The notes under the pieces: generated by a model
What the model was told of the DNA's origin: nothing
The model's database searches: none
The model's input: only the letters and a program-made list of their open reading frames with translations
Virus genome (UHGV): UHGV-0058547
Reading direction: 5' to 3' (one strand)
From: a virus
Length of the DNA: 11,709 bases
Program-made: the position numbers and the translations under genes
Part shown: positions 2,743 through 7,657 of the stretch, piece after piece
Position numbering within the stretch: the first letter of the stretch is position 1
Layout: every line of letters begins with the position of its first letter

Positions 2743-2925
2743 ATGGCAAAGCGCACGACTTATAACGTGACGGAAGAAAGAAAAATGAAACTAGAACGAC
2801 TGGCTATAAATGCCAGTGTAAAACTAGGAAAAACAATTACATGGACAGAGATTTTAGGTTATCTGATTGATAACTACTCTAAAGATGCAGCAGAAGATCT
2901 CATGTCTGCCAAACAAAAGGATTAA
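2743..2925 (+). CDS. Small ribbon-helix-helix (CopG/Arc/MetJ-like) DNA-binding protein; candidate phage repressor/regulator
   Basis: 60 aa. Basic N-terminus plus alternating strand KRTTYNVT, then helix EERKMKLERLAINASVKLG, loop and second helix ILGYLIDNY: the classic RHH pattern. Transcribed divergently from gII, as rstR is from rstA in CTXphi. Confidence 0.6.
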   Translation: MAKRTTYNVTEERKMKLERLAINASVKLGKTITWTEILGYLIDNYSKDAAEDLMSAKQKD

Positions 2926-2943
2926 GTACCACGAATGGTACAA

Positions 2944-2970
2944 ACGTGCAGTATTACCTACACTGCACGT
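2944..2970 (+). other. Stem-loop (8-bp stem ACGTGCAG / CTGCACGT, 11-nt loop) followed by TCTTTATT; possible attenuator/terminator or protein binding site
   Basis: Direct reading: 2944-2951 is the reverse complement of 2963-2970. Lies between the RHH stop (2925) and the next ATG (3014). Confidence 0.3.
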
Positions 2971-3013
2971 TCTTTATTGTGCGGATTTTGAACAGCAACA
3001 AAGGATCAAAAGG

Positions 3014-3436
3014 ATGAGTAGAAATAACGAAACAAGCGGCGTTGAACTGGTTGTTGTAGGCGTATTTGCTTTCTGTCTGGCAGTTGTTGCCTGGCTAATG
3101 AAAACTTTCGATGTTGAATGGCAAACAGCACTGGAAACTGCGCCTGGCCTGATAGTCTGGCTGCTTGTTGTCGGTGCGGGGATCTTTTTCGGGATCAAAA
3201 TGGAAACTGGCCTTATTCGCTGGGGTGCTCCACTGGCGATCGCCCTTCTGATTCCGGTATTCAAGCCAATTCTTAAGGAAGCTGCCGGAGTTCGTGAAAC
3301 GGGTGGGCTGGTTTTCGATGATATGGTTTCGTGGTATGGAACTGGCTGGGGAATGTCTCTGATGTTCTTCGGGATTCTTATCGTCGGATACGGTCTGCTT
3401 TATTGGTGGCACAGAAGGAATTCATATTATTGGTGA
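3014..3436 (+). CDS. 140-aa integral membrane protein with four predicted TM helices; function unknown
   Basis: ATG at 3014 preceded by AAGGA. Hydrophobic stretches ELVVVGVFAFCLAVVAWLM, GLIVWLLVVGAGIFFGI, APLAIALLIPVF and MSLMFFGILIVGYGLLYWW. The longer track ORF from 2867 lacks an RBS, and its extension is unlikely. Confidence 0.6.
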   Translation: MSRNNETSGVELVVVGVFAFCLAVVAWLMKTFDVEWQTALETAPGLIVWLLVVGAGIFFGIKMETGLIRWGAPLAIALLIPVFKPILKEAAGVRETGGLVFDDMVSWYGTGWGMSLMFFGILIVGYGLLYWWHRRNSYYW

Positions 3437-3502: not shown

Positions 3503-4084
3503 GTGAAGATGAGTATGCAACCGAATGAAGAAATGGACCTCAGGAAATTTTACGCAGAGGGAACAGCTGACTACTTAAAAACTAAAATCAAAAAAAGCGA
3601 ACGACTTTTAAAAATAAACCAATATCTATCATTTGCCCTCCCTGTCCTAGTTGGAGGATACGCATCGGTTGATCACAGCTCCAAATATTTTGATTTTTTA
3701 GTTTGGGGCACAGGGATATTATCAGTGATAGTCTTGCTTTCTAATTTATACACACTGGTCATGAAGACTGATGAAAATTTATCTCGATATCTGGAATCAT
3801 ACTCTTTCAATAAACTCCTAACTGATTTGTATGGCGAACTGTCGAGCATGTTTAAATCAAAGACAGGCAACCAGCAACCCGCTAACCATTTGTTTTCAGT
3901 GATAAAATCAAAAGATGACTTCAATGCCAAGGAAGATGAAAAATATGTTAGCAATAATGATAAGAAACGGATTATGTTCGACATTCTGGTAAAGAAAAAT
4001 AAAGAATGCGTACGTTGCAATAAAATACCGACTAAATTTAACAAGCGGAAAGGTTGCACAAATTGTGGCAATCTCGTGAAATAA
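3503..4084 (+). CDS. 2-TM membrane protein with C-terminal CxxC-x12-CxxC zinc ribbon (SLATT-like topology); function unknown
   Basis: N-terminal helix, then TM hairpin YLSFALPVLVGGYASV / LVWGTGILSVIVLLSNLYTLV, a charged helical region, and C-terminal ECVRCNKIPTKFNKRKGCTNCGN. Start ambiguous between GTG 3503, ATG 3509 and ATG 3515; GAAAGG precedes. Confidence 0.6.
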   Translation: MKMSMQPNEEMDLRKFYAEGTADYLKTKIKKSERLLKINQYLSFALPVLVGGYASVDHSSKYFDFLVWGTGILSVIVLLSNLYTLVMKTDENLSRYLESYSFNKLLTDLYGELSSMFKSKTGNQQPANHLFSVIKSKDDFNAKEDEKYVSNNDKKRIMFDILVKKNKECVRCNKIPTKFNKRKGCTNCGNLVK

Positions 4085-4287: not shown

Positions 4288-4329
4288 AATCTAAAAGATT
4301 TTGGTTCGCACAATGACGTTATGCTAAAG

Positions 4330-4366
4330 AGGCCGCTGCGGGATTCGATTTTCGCAGCGGCCTTTT
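4330..4366 (+). terminator. Rho-independent terminator ending the RHH/membrane-protein operon
   Basis: 11-bp GC-rich stem AGGCCGCTGCG (4330-4340) pairing with CGCAGCGGCCT (4353-4363), 12-nt loop, then TTTT. Confidence 0.75.
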
Positions 4367-4396
4367 CAACATAACGAGTCCTACATTATGCGCACC
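4364..4396 (-). other. dif-like XerC/XerD recombination site (site 2), long central region
   Basis: Minus strand reads GGTGCGCATAA-TGTAGGACTCG-TTATGTTGAAA. E. coli dif is GGTGCGCATAA-TGTATA-TTATGTTAAAT. XerC arm 11/11, XerD arm 9/11, central region 11 nt. Confidence 0.65.
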
Positions 4397-4555
4397 AACA
4401 TAAACCAAGGGAGAATCCAGTGATTTGTGGACATCCTTGTTCTCGCAGAATATGGATGTGCTGAGTCTGGTTGGTTCGCCTAACGGTTGAAATGTCTTGC
4501 GGCCTTCACTGGGCTTGTTGAGTGTTCTGAATGTTCGCTTCAGGAACTGATTCAA

Positions 4556-5647
4556 ATGAAACGATTAATACTTGCTGCGACTGTAATAAGTGCAAGCCTG
4601 CTGCCATTTACCTGTTCGGCAAATGCCGACTCACTGGGTATCAATAAAGACTGCGATAACCATCCTGTCAGCCAGTACGGCATGGACACCATTACCGCAT
4701 TCAGTCAGTACAAGACGGAATCGAAAAAATTTAAAGATGCACTGACTGCGTTCTGCAATAAAGGCAAAACCATGGGCGACATGGGATTTGAAGCTGCCAA
4801 TGCTCACTCTCTTGCTGAAGCAAGGAAATGGACTGACTCCAGTCTTCCGGGGGGAAATGAAGAGCAGAAAAAATTTTCAGCAGCCATGGGGAGCCTGCTT
4901 TACTATGCAATGCTGAATGGATTCTCTGGTTTTGACTATCCCAGGTCGCCCGAGCAAAAAGAAAAATCAGTAAGCACATTTAATCCAAATGAGATATGTG
5001 ATGACATATCATCTAAAGCAGCCAAATATTCAACCTCGAATCTCCCCCCTCAAGTACAGATTTCATTAGCTGAGTGGAATCAAATCAAAGGCGAGTTTCA
5101 GATGGTGTGTTTTGCGGGAGTTATGGCGGGTAACAATCGCCAGTCGGTTGACTCAAAAATATTGGCTGGAATGAATGATATAGGCCCAGAAGTGAATTTG
5201 AGTGCTTATCGTTCTGGTTCGGAATACCCAAAGCCTCGCAGCAAAAACAACACGGAAAAAATTGATGCTACAGCAAGGGAGAAAGCGGCTGCAAAGAAGA
5301 AAGCAGATGCAGCCAGAAAACAAAGTGCCACCAACAAAACAAAGCAGGCTGACGATTATAAATCCAGGAGTGTTCGCCTTGACTCCCCCGATTTTCAACG
5401 CTTTCAGTCTTCACTCAGAAATGAATTTATGCGGCGAATTGGTGATGCGAAGCGTTTTTCAGGAAAAGAATGTTCAATAAATGTCTGGATGTCACAGAAA
5501 GGTGAGGTTCTGTCAGCCAGGAAGGAATCCGGAGATGAAGAGCTTTGCTCTGTGGTATTGCAGGCATCGAAGGGAATGAGGCTTAGCCCTATGAGTAATG
5601 AAGTTTACGGAGTGTTCCGTAATCCATCCCTCAACTTTAAATTCTAG
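4556..5647 (+). CDS. Secreted (signal-peptide) protein with K/A-rich helical linker and C-terminal TolA domain III-like domain
   Basis: Likely start MKRLILAATVISASLLPFTCSANA (signal peptide) at 4556, AGGA 10 nt upstream. C-terminus GKECSINVWMSQKGEVLSARKESGDEELCSVVLQASKGMRLSPMSNEVYGVFRNPSLNFKF aligns with the E. coli TolA C-terminus GKTCTLRIKLAPDGMLLDIKPEGGDPALCQAALAAAKLAKIPKPPSQAVYEVFKNAPLDFKP (recalled). Preceded by a Lys/Ala-rich stretch like TolA domain II. No TM anchor. Confidence 0.7.
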   Translation: MKRLILAATVISASLLPFTCSANADSLGINKDCDNHPVSQYGMDTITAFSQYKTESKKFKDALTAFCNKGKTMGDMGFEAANAHSLAEARKWTDSSLPGGNEEQKKFSAAMGSLLYYAMLNGFSGFDYPRSPEQKEKSVSTFNPNEICDDISSKAAKYSTSNLPPQVQISLAEWNQIKGEFQMVCFAGVMAGNNRQSVDSKILAGMNDIGPEVNLSAYRSGSEYPKPRSKNNTEKIDATAREKAAAKKKADAARKQSATNKTKQADDYKSRSVRLDSPDFQRFQSSLRNEFMRRIGDAKRFSGKECSINVWMSQKGEVLSARKESGDEELCSVVLQASKGMRLSPMSNEVYGVFRNPSLNFKF

Positions 5648-6102
5648 TTCATGCCGGGTAAGAGTCTTCACTTTTGTGGGGATTCTTATTTTCTTTTTGT
5701 TGTTATTGTCAGCTCAAGCCGCATGGCTCTCCTGCGGAGGGCTTAATATTGGGATAATATTGAAACATCAAAGACAGATGCAGATAAGTACAGAAAACCG
5801 ATAATAACAATTAAACAGTAAGTCTGTATAAGAGAATAACAGAATATATAAAAGAATTAACCCCGGTTGGCGATTTGGCGATGGTAACACAGATATTTAA
5901 ATCTGTAAAATGGTTATATTTATTTTTTTATTTACCCACCCTATCGGGTGATTCCGGCGCAGTCCTGACCCTGAGTACGCTCCCTGTAATGCACCATGCG
6001 CAACGCCAGAGTCAGTGGCAATGCAAAGCCATGACTAAGGCCAAAATCACCCCAAAACCGCATACAGGCAGTCAGCGGTCACGATGTAAGCAAAATACGA
6101 GA

Positions 6103-6122
6103 TACTGTATAAATAAACAGCC
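6103..6122. promoter_or_regulatory. LexA (SOS) box-like palindrome TACTGTATAAATAAACAGCC
   Basis: CTGT-N8-ACAG with an AT-rich spacer; 16/20 matches to the E. coli consensus TACTGTATATATATACAGTA. Contains a TATAAA -10-like hexamer. Lies in an 0.8-kb noncoding stretch about 340 bp upstream of the HNH_3-like gene. Confidence 0.5.
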
Positions 6123-6460
6123 CTGCAATTGTCAGGCATATGCGCCCTCTCACACTGACACCCCCCCTGTTCCGCCCTGTTTATTGCATCTGTACAGCCA
6201 TCTGAGCGCATCCGGCTGCAACCTGACGCATTTGCATGTGCCGTATTAATGATGCCACACAGAGCGCCTGACGGTTTGTACCATCATCTGTCACAATTCA
6301 TTGTTTGAAAAATTTTACATTTTATTTTTTGAAGTGATTACATAAATATAATCCATCTCTCCGGCATGAGTGCCTGACTGAAGGTGAATCGAAAAAGAAG
6401 GACCCGCCCCGATTCTTTTTACTCCCTTCCCTTTCAGTTAAATCACGCAGGAGAAATATC

Positions 6461-7408
6461 ATGCCCCGCTACAAAAAAGGTATCCGTAATAATTGCTTTC
6501 ATCAAAATTATACTCATGACGTATTGTTCCCCGGCGCAACATTCAGAACCCGACATAATGGAGAATGCGCCATTCTTGGCCGCTCTGATGATAAATCAAG
6601 GCGAGGCTATTATGTCGTGGAATTCAAAGACAGTGGCATCATCAAGGAAGCCTATGGCTCGCATATTAAAACTGGTTCTGTATCAGACGAAGCTTTTCCA
6701 TCATCGGAGGAAGAACGACGAAAGTTACTGATGACACCAAAATATTACGGCGTCGGATATATTGGTAATGGATGTCATTCAACTATTGAAAACACCCGAA
6801 CACACCAAAGAACGAGAGCATTCATACTCTGGCATAACATGCTGGCAAGGTGCTACATGACAACCAAAGGGAAGCAGTATTTTAAAGGCTACAAAGGTGT
6901 CACTGTATGCGAGCGATGGCATAACTTTCAGAACTTCTGCAATGACCTTCCAAAATTGCATGGCTACAACAAATGGAAGGATAATCCGGGAGAGTATGAG
7001 CTCGATAAGGATTACTCACATCGCCGGATTTATTCTGCTGACACGGTGGCATTTATCAGCACAGAAGAAAATGCCAGGGAAGCTGGATTACGACGCGTTG
7101 CCATGAAGATTCCTTCCGGGCATTATCATGAAATAAATAAAATTCGAGATGAGATATTAATGGAGGCTGAAGATGAATTAAAAAACAATCAAATTCATTA
7201 TGAAGTTGTTCTTGACGGGAATATGAAAGTAATCCTGTGTGAAACTCCTTATGGCACAGTGTTGTTCTGGCCTCTCACAAAAAAGATTCAGCGTAATTGC
7301 TACATGATTGATGGTGATGTACAGGTTTATGTTTATTACCTGCGCTGGCTCATACTTCAGTGGGAAAACAGAAATCCCGACATAAACTGTGTTGCTACAA
7401 CCTGTTGA
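6461..7408 (+). CDS. 315-aa protein with central degenerate HNH_3-like module; putative DNA-binding protein or inactive homing-endonuclease relative
   Basis: AGGAG 7 nt upstream of the ATG. Central motif W-HNM-LARCY ... YFKGYKGVTVCERWHNFQNFCND ... YELDKDYSHRRIYSADTVAFISTEENAR matches the phage HNH_3-family pattern W..M..RC ... YGGRGI.VC..W..F..F ... IDRID.DGNY.P.NCRW.T..EQ..N (recalled), but the canonical catalytic residues are not evident. Confidence 0.6.
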   Translation: MPRYKKGIRNNCFHQNYTHDVLFPGATFRTRHNGECAILGRSDDKSRRGYYVVEFKDSGIIKEAYGSHIKTGSVSDEAFPSSEEERRKLLMTPKYYGVGYIGNGCHSTIENTRTHQRTRAFILWHNMLARCYMTTKGKQYFKGYKGVTVCERWHNFQNFCNDLPKLHGYNKWKDNPGEYELDKDYSHRRIYSADTVAFISTEENAREAGLRRVAMKIPSGHYHEINKIRDEILMEAEDELKNNQIHYEVVLDGNMKVILCETPYGTVLFWPLTKKIQRNCYMIDGDVQVYVYYLRWLILQWENRNPDINCVATTC

Positions 7409-7589
7409 TGATGCTATAAAATAGTCATAAAATAACCGGCATTTCACAATGCTATCTATTAATAAGAAGAAACGAACATTCAGGATGTATCTGTAATTCC
7501 GCTGTTGCAGTGATTTTCTGTGCCAGAAAACAAGTGACAACGTCTGGCAGCTCATTGCAGAAGGCTAAATGCCAGCACTTCGTGCAGTC

Positions 7590-7619
7590 ATTTAACATGT
7601 TCAACACATTATGCGCACC
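7590..7619 (-). other. dif-like XerC/XerD recombination site (site 1)
   Basis: Minus strand reads GGTGCGCATAA-TGTGTTGA-ACATGTTAAAT. XerC arm 11/11 to E. coli dif; XerD arm 9/11, with the last 9 nt ATGTTAAAT identical; 8-nt central region. Confidence 0.7.
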
Positions 7620-7657
7620 AATGGTAAGGATGGCGGGAACTGGCGTTACCGGTGCCG

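What the first reader, a model, noticed from the sequence alone, without database searches (positions are those of the whole stretch)
5648..6460. 0.8-kb stretch with no credible ORF, locally GC-richer and repeat-containing
The region between the TolA-like and HNH_3-like genes has only low-complexity, RBS-less ORFs on either strand, yet is compositionally distinct (GC-richer around 5940-6250 by eye). It contains the LexA-like box, an 8-bp inverted pair ATAAACAG (6113-6120) / CTGTTTAT (6177-6184), TGTCAG...CTGACA (6141-6146 / 6164-6169), the palindrome CTGTACAG, and a TATAAT hexamer at 6347-6352. It could be a decayed gene, a structured RNA, or the displaced replication/packaging signals.
Basis: seen in the sequence. 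Interest (0 to 1): 0.45.

Follow-up and report, generated by a model that had tools for sequence, protein, structure and literature searches.

The report
Control region of a dif-integrating element
The 0.8-kb "empty" stretch is not a dead gene or part of the phage: it is the conserved non-coding control region, with a host SOS (LexA) operator at its centre, of a small mobile element that inserts at the chromosome's dimer-resolution site (dif) and here sits in or next to a filamentous phage.

Summary
The stretch 5648-6460 is truly non-coding. No reading frame is conserved, substitutions show no 3-base periodicity, and there is no protein or Rfam match.

It does not belong to the filamentous phage. 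It is the backbone of a separate ~3.2-kb element (4376-7620). Chromosomal copies are flanked by canonical dif on one side and a 30-bp dif-like site on the other, so it is an IMEX (integrative mobile element exploiting Xer). The element occurs in E. coli, Yersinia, Serratia, Buttiauxella, Kluyvera and on IncF plasmids, sometimes in tandem.

All ~10 lineages keep a 0.8-0.9-kb gap with the same block order:
- cargo terminator;
- an invariant 33-nt stem-loop;
- a leftward extended -10 promoter;
- a ~350-bp spacer that evolves at about the neutral rate, whose length changes only in ~11-bp steps;
- a conserved LexA box at the spacer's centre;
- an AT-rich promoter block;
- a leader that tends to pair with the ribosome-binding site of the HNH-endonuclease-like gene.

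Best reading: an SOS-responsive, helically phased divergent-promoter region. A replication origin is not excluded.

Unexpectedly, the whole element has no GATC sites (0 observed, ~95 expected).

The parts
4376..7620 (+). The whole ~3.2-kb dif-flanked element (IMEX) that contains the finding. Order: left junction, cargo promoter region, TolA-like cargo gene, the gap, the HNH-like gene, 30-bp dif-like site.
   Evidence: The same unit is 96.7% identical in plasmid pEk72-1, 99.9% in E. coli C next to hipBA, and ~70% in other genera. Chromosomal copies are bounded by canonical dif on the left and the 30-bp variant on the right.
5656..5698 (+). Intrinsic terminator of the cargo gene(s): stem-loop plus T-run. 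It marks the right-hand boundary of the exchangeable cargo cassette.
   Evidence: Terminator scan. Fold z=-4.96. Consensus fold on the + strand -21 kcal/mol against -10 on the - strand. G-T wobbles fit only the + strand. 98.5% homology with E. coli C10, which has different cargo, resumes at 5662.
5713..5745 (.). Invariant 33-nt motif TCAAGCCG(C/T)ATGGCTCTCCTGCGGAGGGCTTAA, an imperfect stem-loop. Its partner is unknown.
   Evidence: Nearly invariant in all lineages, differing only at the C/T position, one extra C in Scandinavium and the last bases in L098, even where the HNH-like proteins are 60% identical. A 19-mer core scanned in metagenomes recovered this element family plus unrelated chance matches that share only the 19-mer. 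It gave no hit in IMG/VR. In E. coli genomes a 43-nt query centred on the motif matched only 91 genomes at >=95% identity, 1-6 copies each, almost all chromosomal, as for the element.
5881..5909 (-). Conserved leftward sigma-70 promoter of the extended -10 type: TTTACA (5909-5904), 17 nt, TGn, TACCAT (5886-5881). The palindrome ACAGAT-N6-ATCTGT (5889-5906) lies in its spacer. It points towards the cargo, antisense.
   Evidence: It is the only promoter-like site found at the same alignment column in all 9 distinct lineages, always with a 17-bp spacer and TG (scores 7.8-13.1). The tool scan also lists it.
5937..5950 (.). Conserved 5-bp hairpin CACCC-TATC-GGGTG, preceded by a T-rich tract. It forms the left edge of the spacer.
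   Evidence: Alignment. It is one of the few consensus helices found. Fold.
5951..6287 (.). GC-richer, C>G spacer. Its sequence evolves at about the neutral rate but its length is constrained.
   Evidence: Divergence is close to or above third-codon-position divergence of the neighbouring gene in 4 of 5 lineage pairs; the exception is Cfre/L105, which looks like a recombinant. Hairpin-to-CTGTCAC distance is 346-348 nt in 7 sequences and 337, 337, 359 and 369 in the others, so net changes are about -11, -11, +11 and +21. No ORF, no periodicity, no consensus RNA fold. C>G in nearly all lineages.
6077..6082 (.). GGTCAC, conserved in 10 of 11 sequences (TGTCAC in L098), exactly 28 nt before the LexA core.
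6103..6122 (.). LexA (SOS) operator TACTGTATAAATAAACAGCC, core CTGT-N8-ACAG at 6105-6120.
   Evidence: Unique in the window, 0.09 expected. Conserved in every lineage while the flanking spacer is at neutral divergence. 16 of 20 positions match the consensus TACTGTATATATATACAGTA (read from sequence; more than 3 mismatches).
6288..6352 (+). Conserved AT-rich promoter block for the HNH-like gene. Best candidate: TTGTTT (6301-6306), 16 nt, TATTTT (6323-6328).
   Evidence: A promoter-like pair sits at the same columns in 8 of 9 lineages. Block conservation.
6372..6460 (+). 5' leader of the HNH-like mRNA. It holds conserved GCCTGA (6372-6377), conserved AGGACCCGCCCCGATTCTTTTT (6399-6420) and the ribosome-binding site CAGGAG (6448-6453).
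   Evidence: The only consensus pairs are CCUG with CAGG of the ribosome-binding site. Single-sequence folds give the same enclosing helix in 8 of 10 lineages, with pairing probability 0.59-1.0. There is no covariation, because both sides are invariant.
6461..7408 (+). 315-aa HNH-endonuclease-like gene. It is the only protein gene conserved in the element.
   Evidence: phrog_2081 E=2e-35. Homologues listed. AlphaFold pLDDT 86.6. No close solved fold; weak domain matches to Tudor/CarD, Hpy99I (beta-beta-alpha-metal) and the MotA C-terminal domain.
7590..7619 (+). 30-bp dif-like attachment site ATTTAACATGT-TCAACACA-TTATGCGCACC: XerD arm, 8-bp centre, XerC arm.
   Evidence: The same site closes the element in all chromosomal lineages and separates tandem copies.

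Best explanation
The 813 bp are the non-coding control region of a small mobile element that integrates at dif through the host Xer recombinases (an IMEX). They are neither phage DNA nor a gene remnant.

Reading left to right:
- an intrinsic terminator ends the exchangeable cargo cassette;
- an invariant 33-nt stem-loop follows;
- a strong extended -10 promoter fires leftwards, antisense to the cargo;
- about 425 bp to the right, an AT-rich promoter fires rightwards into the element's only conserved gene, an HNH-endonuclease-like protein;
- the leader of that gene tends to mask its ribosome-binding site.

Between these two back-to-back promoter blocks lies a GC-richer spacer. Its sequence is free but its length changes only by about whole helical turns. 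A LexA operator sits at its centre.

Inferred mechanism:
- The element has no repressor gene of its own and uses host LexA as its sensor.
- In undamaged cells the HNH-like gene is kept low by LexA, by a phased DNA architecture linking the two AT-rich blocks, and by the leader.
- DNA damage (SOS) relieves this.

Shown: non-coding status, membership of the element, block conservation, the leftward promoter, the LexA box and the quantised spacing. Inferred: which promoter LexA controls, and what the 33-nt motif binds.
For: Separate element:
- Identical or related copies lie in chromosomes and IncF plasmids without the phage.
- They are flanked by dif and dif-like sites.
- They occur in tandem arrays of 3.06-3.25 kb.
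- The closest phage copies lack the stretch.

Non-coding.

Not a known RNA and no conserved fold.

Same block order and 0.8-0.9-kb length in about 10 lineages.

Leftward promoter present in 9 of 9 lineages.

LexA box unique in the window and conserved within neutrally evolving DNA.

Spacing changes of about -11, -11, +11 and +21 bp, arising from indels at different positions.

Leader pairing with the ribosome-binding site.

No repressor or recombinase domain in the element's ORFs.
Against: - No convincing promoter lies within about 40 bp of the LexA box on either strand. The box is about 200 bp from both conserved promoters, which is unusual for LexA operators.
- The leader fold is weak (z -0.1 to -1.4) and has no covariation support.
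- The most conserved feature, the 33-nt motif, has no role in this model.
- The total lack of GATC in the element hints at a replicative or single-stranded phase that this model does not address.
- The helical-phase argument rests on only four length variants.
- No transcript or binding data exist.
Confidence: 0.6

Rival explanations
1. The stretch is, or contains, the replication origin and cis-acting sites of the excised circular element. After SOS induction the HNH-like protein nicks or binds the invariant 33-nt stem-loop or the AT-rich blocks and starts episomal, possibly rolling-circle, replication. The element would then be a satellite-like mini-replicon that uses phages and plasmids only for transfer.
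For: - The whole element is GATC-free in 10 copies (0 observed, about 95 expected), while flanking DNA is normal. Phage phiX174, a rolling-circle ssDNA phage, is likewise devoid of GATC (PMC5014478).
- Tandem arrays occur.
- AT-rich blocks flank a phased spacer.
- The invariant hairpin fits a site recognised by a conserved factor.
- The HNH family includes nicking enzymes (own knowledge: I-HmuI).
Against: - No iterons or direct-repeat family.
- No DnaA boxes or IHF sites conserved.
- No known Rep, HUH or primase domain.
- The presumed catalytic His of the HNH motif appears to be Lys (ELDKD, read).
- Tandem arrays and spread are equally explained by repeated Xer integration into any replicon that has a dif-like site.
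Confidence: 0.2
2. The main product of the stretch is a non-coding RNA. The conserved leftward promoter makes an RNA of about 170 nt or more that carries the invariant motif as a 3' stem-loop. This RNA would regulate the cargo operon in cis (antisense) or the HNH leader in trans.
For: - The strongest and best-conserved promoter points this way.
- Its first ~25 nt, an internal block (5785-5802) and the 33-nt motif are conserved.
- It runs antisense to the cargo 3' end.
Against: - No terminator on the - strand; the hairpins there are weak and lack a U-tail (read from sequence).
- The middle of the putative RNA carries large indels, including a 44-nt deletion in L112.
- No consensus structure on the - strand beyond the motif.
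- The G-T pair in the motif favours the + strand.
- No Rfam match.
Confidence: 0.15
3. Decayed or frameshifted gene.
For: A 124-aa ORF is open in the E. coli type. The GC-richer composition resembles coding DNA.
Against: - Every frame is broken in most lineages.
- No codon periodicity.
- Indels are 11 or 14 nt.
- HMMER against 1.84 billion representatives found no real family, only near-identical ORF calls plus one weak partial hit.
- No Pfam or NCBIfam hit.
- A pseudogene would not keep its length while its sequence drifts.
Confidence: 0.02
4. Displaced origin or packaging signal of the filamentous phage.
For: It lies between phage genes IV and II, where the Ff intergenic region sits.
Against: - Absent from the closest phage genomes.
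- No similarity to the rest of the window.
- Always linked to the HNH-like gene in phage-free contexts.
- The phage's own att region with its strong hairpin is at 4303-4400.
Confidence: 0.03

Closest known systems
CTXphi regulatory intergenic region (ig-2 / PrstA) and the IMEX arrays of Vibrio cholerae (CTXphi, RS1, TLCphi)
   Same: A Xer/dif-integrating element sits in tandem arrays with filamentous prophages. It has a non-coding control region with a host LexA site in front of the element's key gene. (LexA control of PrstA is from own knowledge; IMEX features are from PMC6744903.)
   Different: There is no RstR-like repressor, no pII/Cri-type Rep and no XafT (DUF3653). The conserved gene is HNH-like. 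The LexA box is about 200 bp from the nearest recognisable promoter. No sequence similarity.
TLCphi-type satellite IMEX
   Same: Small size (3-5 kb), integration at dif beside a filamentous phage, and a double-stranded att site with XerC and XerD arms.
   Different: TLCphi has an HUH replication protein and XafT. Neither was found here.
EcloIMEX elements of Enterobacter (blaIMI carriers)
   Same: Xer-dependent islands at dif in Enterobacterales (PMC7855592).
   Different: As I recall (own knowledge), those are tens of kilobases in size. PMC7855592 describes their conserved end as carrying blaIMI, hypothetical proteins, a protease, an ABC ATPase and a glycosyltransferase, with no HNH gene or 0.8-kb gap mentioned. 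I did not compare sequences directly.
cer / psi plasmid Xer sites with accessory sequences
   Same: The 8-bp central region is like cer. Xer sites can be flanked by ~200 bp of phased non-coding accessory DNA.
   Different: Accessory sequences abut the XerC arm. The gap is 1.1-1.2 kb from either site. The 170-bp left end (4400-4555) is the better candidate for that role.
SOS-controlled type I toxin loci (tisB/istR, dinQ/agrB)
   Same: A LexA box in a few hundred bp of 'empty' DNA with divergent or antisense promoters.
   Different: No conserved small ORF on either strand. No Rfam hit.
phiX174 GATC avoidance
   Same: Complete absence of GATC in a small enterobacterial mobile genome (PMC5014478).
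   Different: Here the GATC-free DNA is an integrated element with no known replication or capsid genes. The neighbouring phage DNA is not GATC-free (21 sites): its left part has the expected number and its right part about half.

Membership tests
IMEX (integrative mobile element exploiting Xer) | Bounded by dif or dif-like sites: 11-bp XerD arm, 6-8-bp centre, 11-bp XerC arm | tested here: met
   Canonical 28-bp dif on the left and the 30-bp variant on the right in E. coli C, Buttiauxella, Yersinia, Serratia, L098 and L105/L106. Site definition from PMC6744903.
IMEX (integrative mobile element exploiting Xer) | Sits at the chromosomal dif locus or at a plasmid/phage dif-like site | tested here: met
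   Next to hipBA/dif in E. coli C and C10. Also found at dif-like sites of IncF plasmids and of the phage.
IMEX (integrative mobile element exploiting Xer) | No integrase of its own | tested here: met
   Only the TolA-like or other cargo ORFs and the HNH-like ORF are present. No recombinase domain in Pfam, NCBIfam or PHROGs.
IMEX (integrative mobile element exploiting Xer) | Integration and excision depend on XerC/XerD | not testable with these tools
   Needs xerC/xerD mutants or in vitro recombination.
LexA (SOS) operator | CTGT-N8-ACAG palindrome with AT-rich centre | tested here: met
   6105-6120, unique in the window, kept in all lineages.
LexA (SOS) operator | Overlaps or abuts a promoter (about -40 to +30) | tested here: inconclusive
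   Only weak, non-conserved -35/-10 pairs lie near the box. The conserved promoters are about 200 bp away.
LexA (SOS) operator | Bound by LexA; target induced by DNA damage | not testable with these tools
   Needs EMSA or ChIP and expression assays.
Filamentous-phage intergenic region (origin and packaging signal) | Part of the phage genome and conserved among related phages | tested here: not met
   Absent from the Salmonella replicative form and from the E. coli KE48/C10 prophage copies. No similarity to the rest of the window.
Structured non-coding RNA (Rfam family or new) | Covariance-model match, or a conserved fold with compensatory changes | tested here: not met
   No Rfam hit above noise. 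Consensus helices occur only at the terminator/motif, the 5-bp hairpin and the LexA palindrome. The leader helix is invariant.
Pseudogene | Residual reading frame, codon periodicity, protein homologues | tested here: not met
SOS type I toxin-antitoxin | Conserved small hydrophobic ORF plus antisense RNA | tested here: not met
   No ORF of 8 aa or more shares a stop column in more than 5 of 9 lineages.
Plasmid or phage replication origin (iteron/theta or rolling-circle) | Iterons or a nick-site hairpin next to a Rep gene; DnaA/IHF sites; AT-rich unwinding element | tested here: inconclusive
   AT-rich blocks and one invariant hairpin are present. No iterons, no DnaA or IHF sites, no known Rep domain.
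Xer accessory sequences (cer/psi type) | ~200 bp directly adjoining the XerC arm | tested here: not met
   The gap is 1.1-1.2 kb from both sites.

The most novel reading that the evidence does not exclude
The gap is the SOS-triggered origin and control module of a previously unrecognised kind of minimal, GATC-free mobile element. Its only conserved protein, a divergent HNH-type enzyme, acts on the invariant 33-nt stem-loop, either as a nickase that starts episomal replication or as a homing or cassette-exchange nuclease. The element spreads by Xer-mediated co-integration into filamentous phages and plasmids. A variant reading is that the HNH enzyme targets unmethylated GATC and relies on host Dam to protect the chromosome, which would explain why the element carries no GATC at all.
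Probability: 0.15. Interest if true: 0.75.

Novelty: new variant of a known kind. Interest (0 to 1): 0.5.

Why it matters
- It turns an apparently empty stretch in a phage window into the defining backbone of a small IMEX family. The family is widespread in Enterobacterales (97 of 5426 complete E. coli genomes; also Yersinia, Serratia, Kluyvera, Buttiauxella and IncF plasmids) and I found no description of it in the searchable literature.
- The family shuttles exchangeable periplasmic cargo. One cargo is a TolA C-terminal domain, the co-receptor domain used by Ff-type phages and group A colicins.
- The control region gives a testable case of a mobile element that appears to use host LexA with no repressor of its own.
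- It shows an unusual architecture: back-to-back promoters about 425 bp apart, with a sequence-free, helically phased spacer between them.
- The complete absence of GATC suggests a hidden replicative or single-stranded stage.
- If the HNH-like protein and the invariant hairpin prove to be an initiator/origin or nuclease/target pair, this would be a new type of minimal replicon or homing system at dif.

Tried and rejected
- Rfam, whole window and gap alone, permissive thresholds: nothing.
- Phage database, megablast with the gap: no match.
- Coding tests (six-frame comparison, shared-stop analysis, codon periodicity, exhaustive HMMER with the 124-aa ORF, Pfam, NCBIfam): no gene.
- SOS toxin idea (small hydrophobic peptide on the - strand between the LexA box and the hairpin): peptides and start codons are not conserved.
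- Long-range or local conserved RNA structure in the spacer: none. Single-sequence z-scores are inconsistent.
- Copy of the phage origin: no similarity.
- f1-like or geminivirus-like nick motif in TAATATTGGGATAATATT (5744-5761): this segment is missing in several lineages and deleted in L112.
- Host-factor sites: no DnaA, IHF, Chi or matS sites are conserved, and there are only scattered KOPS-like matches at differing positions.
- sigma-28 and sigma-54 look-alikes, checked by eye: spacing is wrong.
- Promoter at the LexA box: no conserved -35/-10 on either strand.
- PADLOC: no defence-system match.
- Link between the HNH family and GATC avoidance in phage homologues: not systematic, 8 of 79 loci are GATC-free.
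- Distant homologues sit in packed phage gene arrays, mostly with short upstream regions; I did not compare those regions for a similar gap or a LexA box.
Full report
**1. The observation**

I read 5400-6800, listed ORFs and profiled composition.

- The stretch between the stop of the TolA-like gene (5647) and the ATG of the 315-aa gene (6461) holds only short or compositionally odd ORFs. The longest is 124 aa, 5875-6249 on the + strand.
- GC is 0.475-0.505 over 5901-6300 and 0.365-0.41 on both sides.
- The LexA-like box is real (TACTGTATAAATAAACAGCC, 6103-6122). CTGT-N8-ACAG occurs once in the 11.7-kb window against 0.09 expected.
- ATAAACAG, CTGTTTAT, CTGTACAG and TATAAT are at the stated positions.
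- The short inverted repeats are what chance gives in 813 nt and are not conserved.
- The neighbours are as described: a TolA C-terminal domain (PF06519) and an HNH-endonuclease-like protein (phrog_2081, E=2e-35; no Pfam hit).

**2. Whose DNA is it?**

The window is a filamentous phage. It carries gene II (1521-2615, -), the Zot-like gene I, secretin gene IV and others.

The segment ~4380-7620 behaves as a separate unit:
- 96.7% identical in the IncF plasmid pEk72-1;
- 99.9% identical in the E. coli C chromosome next to hipBA;
- about 70% identical in Citrobacter/Klebsiella IncF plasmids, Kluyvera, Buttiauxella, Scandinavium, Serratia and Yersinia.

The closest phage genomes lack it. These are a 7.9-kb Salmonella replicative form and tandem prophages in E. 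coli KE48 and C10.

In every chromosomal copy the unit is bounded as follows:
- on the left by the canonical 28-bp dif, ATTTAACATAATATACATTATGCGCACC;
- on the right by a 30-bp variant, ATTTAACATGTTCAA(C/A/T)ACATTATGCGCACC.

In Serratia liquefaciens and in metagenome contig L106 there are 2-3 tandem copies separated by the 30-bp site, with periods of 3251 and 3058 bp.

The 8-bp centre is within the 6-8-bp range described for Xer sites (PMC6744903). The element encodes no recombinase. It therefore meets the sequence-level definition of an IMEX.

In the window it lies at the phage's own att region. Either it is nested in a phage genome or it sits between two tandem prophage copies. E. coli C10 shows the order phage-phage-element-hipA.

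Different copies carry different cargo:
- the TolA-like gene;
- three small ORFs;
- a 311-aa plus a 119-aa ORF, and other combinations.

With E. coli C10 the 98-99% identity stops at 4572 and resumes at 5662. So the finding begins exactly where the conserved backbone resumes.

**3. Anatomy of the gap across lineages**

I aligned the gap from 8, 10 and then 11 sequences, representing about 10 lineages. All have 0.79-0.90 kb between the cargo and the HNH-like gene, with the same block order.

(a) Terminator, 5656-5698.
- Found by the terminator scan; fold z=-4.96.
- The consensus fold is much stronger on the + strand.

(b) A 33-nt motif, 5713-5745.
- It is nearly invariant even between elements whose HNH-like proteins are only 60% identical.
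- It differs only at one C/T position, by one extra C in Scandinavium, and at its last bases in L098.
- A 19-mer from it gave no hit in IMG/VR.
- In metagenomes it recovered this element family plus unrelated chance matches that share only the 19-mer.
- In E. coli a 43-nt query centred on it matched only 91 genomes, at >=95% identity, with copy number and location like the element's.

(c) A variable AT-rich segment with large indels, 5746-5850.

(d) A conserved block, 5858-5950.
- It contains a - strand promoter: TTTACA, 17 nt, TGn, TA..(A/C)T.
- This is the only promoter-like site present at the same column in 9 of 9 lineages.
- It also contains the hairpin CACCC-TATC-GGGTG.

(e) A GC-richer spacer, 5951-6287.

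(f) Within the spacer, GGTCAC exactly 28 nt before the LexA core. Both are conserved in essentially all lineages.

(g) An AT-rich block, 6288-6352, with a + strand promoter-like pair in 8 of 9 lineages.

(h) A leader with conserved GCCTGA and AGGACCCGCCCCGATTCTTTTT, followed by the ribosome-binding site.

**4. What the spacer is not**

- No frame is open across lineages.
- No ORF of 8 aa or more is shared by more than 5 of 9 lineages.
- Substitutions show no codon periodicity.
- An exhaustive HMMER search with the 124-aa ORF returned near-identical ORF calls (87-95% identity) that look like calls on this same DNA, plus one weak partial hit at E=1e-4.
- Rfam gives nothing.
- RNAalifold finds only the terminator/motif, the small hairpin and the LexA palindrome. 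This holds for 120-column windows and for the whole 370-nt spacer, on both strands.
- Single-sequence fold z-scores are inconsistent.
- There is no similarity to the rest of the phage.

**5. What the spacer is**

Its sequence diverges about as fast as third-codon positions of the adjacent gene. For example:

| Pair | Spacer divergence | Third-position divergence |
|---|---|---|
| Yersinia / Serratia | 27-43% | 28% |
| window / Citrobacter | 52-54% | 48% |

One of the five pairs compared (Citrobacter plasmid vs L105) departs from this: 19-24% in the spacer against 42% at third positions. That pair looks like a recombinant.

The spacer's length, however, is held:
- The hairpin-to-CTGTCAC distance is 346-348 nt in seven sequences.
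- It is 337 in Scandinavium and in Buttiauxella, through 11-nt deletions at different places.
- It is 359 in S. liquefaciens and 369 in L098.
- Net changes are therefore about -11, -11, +11 and +21.
- The distance between the two promoter blocks behaves the same way: 424-429, then 413, 413, 436 and 446.

In L098 the two halves change by +14 and +7, and only the sum is a whole number of turns. So the constraint appears to link the two outer AT-rich blocks rather than either block to the LexA box.

This pattern fits a DNA-level architecture: the same helical face, looping or bridging between two curved AT-rich promoter regions. It does not fit RNA or coding sequence. With four variants the statistical support is modest; my rough estimate is p~0.01.

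**6. Mechanism proposed**

The element has no repressor gene and one conserved protein gene. A perfectly conserved host-LexA site sits in otherwise free-drifting DNA, midway between two back-to-back promoters.

I infer that LexA is the element's damage sensor and that the region sets expression of the HNH-like gene. A second layer is at the leader. CCUG of the conserved GCCUGA pairs with CAGG of the ribosome-binding site in 8 of 10 lineages, with probability 0.59-1.0.

The weak points are these:
- No conserved promoter lies within about 40 bp of the box.
- The leader fold is not statistically strong.
- The roles of the leftward promoter and of the invariant motif are unknown.

**7. An unexpected property that bears on the rivals**

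The whole element, not only the gap, has no GATC:
- 0 observed against about 95 expected over 10 copies (9 diverged lineages with different cargo);
- GATC is the most depleted tetranucleotide; the next is CGCG at O/E 0.38;
- flanking chromosome DNA and the left part of the phage have close to the expected number (phage left part 14 observed, 13.4 expected); the right part of the phage has 7 against 15.4 expected.

Complete GATC avoidance is known for phiX174. It is discussed there in terms of Dam/MutH acting on under-methylated, fast-replicating DNA (PMC5014478).

This keeps alive the idea that the element has an episomal, replicative or single-stranded phase. In that case the gap could hold its origin and the HNH-like protein could be its initiator. 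Against this, there are no iterons, no DnaA or IHF sites, and no known Rep domain. The HNH motif also reads ELDKD, with Lys where His is expected.

The AlphaFold model is confident (pLDDT 86.6) but has no close solved relative. There are only weak domain-level matches: Tudor/CarD-like at the N-terminus, the beta-beta-alpha-metal nuclease Hpy99I, and a MotA-type double-wing domain.

**8. Comparison with known systems and novelty**

The closest analogues are the Vibrio IMEX arrays (CTXphi, RS1, TLCphi). They share Xer integration at dif, association with filamentous phages and a LexA input. Here there is no Rep, RstR or XafT homologue and no sequence similarity.

EcloIMEX islands show that IMEXs exist in Enterobacterales. 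Their described gene content is different: blaIMI, a protease, an ABC ATPase and a glycosyltransferase. As I recall they are also much larger.

Full-text searches combining IMEX, dif, HNH, TolA and hipA found no description of this family. That is not proof of absence.

I rate the finding a new variant of a known kind: the control region of an IMEX, with an unusual architecture.

Noticed in passing
window 4376-7620; also L001, L002, L006, L008, L091, L095, L098, L105, L125: The entire dif-flanked element lacks GATC (Dam sites): 0 observed against about 95 expected in 10 copies with different cargo. Flanking DNA is near expectation or only mildly depleted. GATC is by far the most depleted 4-mer.
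   Followed up: partly
window 4487-5647 (+): The cargo gene encodes an exported protein ending in a TolA C-terminal domain. That domain is the co-receptor of Ff-type filamentous phages and is used by group A colicins (own knowledge). A periplasmic decoy carried next to a filamentous phage could give superinfection exclusion or colicin tolerance.
   Followed up: no
window 4572 and 5662; L125 13074 and 14386: Cargo is exchanged as a cassette. Identity with E. coli C10 is 98-99% up to about 17 nt into the first cargo ORF and again from the terminator onward, with unrelated genes between. The promoter, 5' UTR and first ~5 codons (MKRLI) are part of the backbone.
   Followed up: partly
window 4303-4400: The phage carries two inverted dif-like sites (GGTTCGCACAATGACGTTATGCTAAAG at 4303-4329, and TTTCAACATAACGAGTCCTACATTATGCGCACC ending at 4399). 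They flank a perfect GC-rich hairpin (4330-4365). This layout recalls the folded single-stranded attP of CTXphi.
   Followed up: no
window 4400-4440 vs L003 10973-11016: The first ~40-58 bp of the element after the XerC arm (AACATAAACCAAGGGAGAATCCAGTG...) are 84% identical to the E. coli chromosomal sequence just beyond dif (AATATAAACCAAGGAAGAATCCAGTCG...). The ~170-bp non-coding left end adjoining the XerC arm could act as Xer accessory sequence.
   Followed up: no
L094/L095 (Serratia liquefaciens), L106, several E. coli genomes (up to 6 places per genome): Tandem arrays of the element (period 3.06-3.25 kb) separated by the 30-bp dif-like site.
   Followed up: partly
window 6461-7408, residues ~180-207: The HNH-like motif reads ELDKD...TVAFISTEEN: Lys (K183) sits where the catalytic His is expected, and D182-K183-D184 are invariant in 46 homologues. 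The N-terminal domain looks Tudor/CarD-like and the C-terminal part resembles the MotA double-wing fold. All structural matches are weak.
   Followed up: partly
window 5951-6287 and homologues: Net length changes of the spacer in four lineages are about -11, -11, +11 and +21 bp, roughly whole helical turns, and arise from indels at different positions.
   Followed up: partly
window 3503-4084 (+) and 2867-3436 (+): The phage's own variable cargo region encodes a 'mobilome CxxCx(11)CxxC protein' (TIGR04402, E=1e-41) and a phrog_4174 protein of unknown function. Related phages carry a Doc-family toxin or other ORFs at this position.
   Followed up: no
L004 (JARKOR010000214.1): A contig labelled 'Candidatus Nanosynbacter' MAG carries the element at 98.5-99% identity to the E. 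coli type. This is most likely a binning or contamination artefact.
   Followed up: no
L003 2904-7765 (E. coli C): In E. coli C the left end of the element is split by an ISSen4 insertion. Just upstream of dif lie IS3-family remnants interrupted by a group II intron (ltrA).
   Followed up: no
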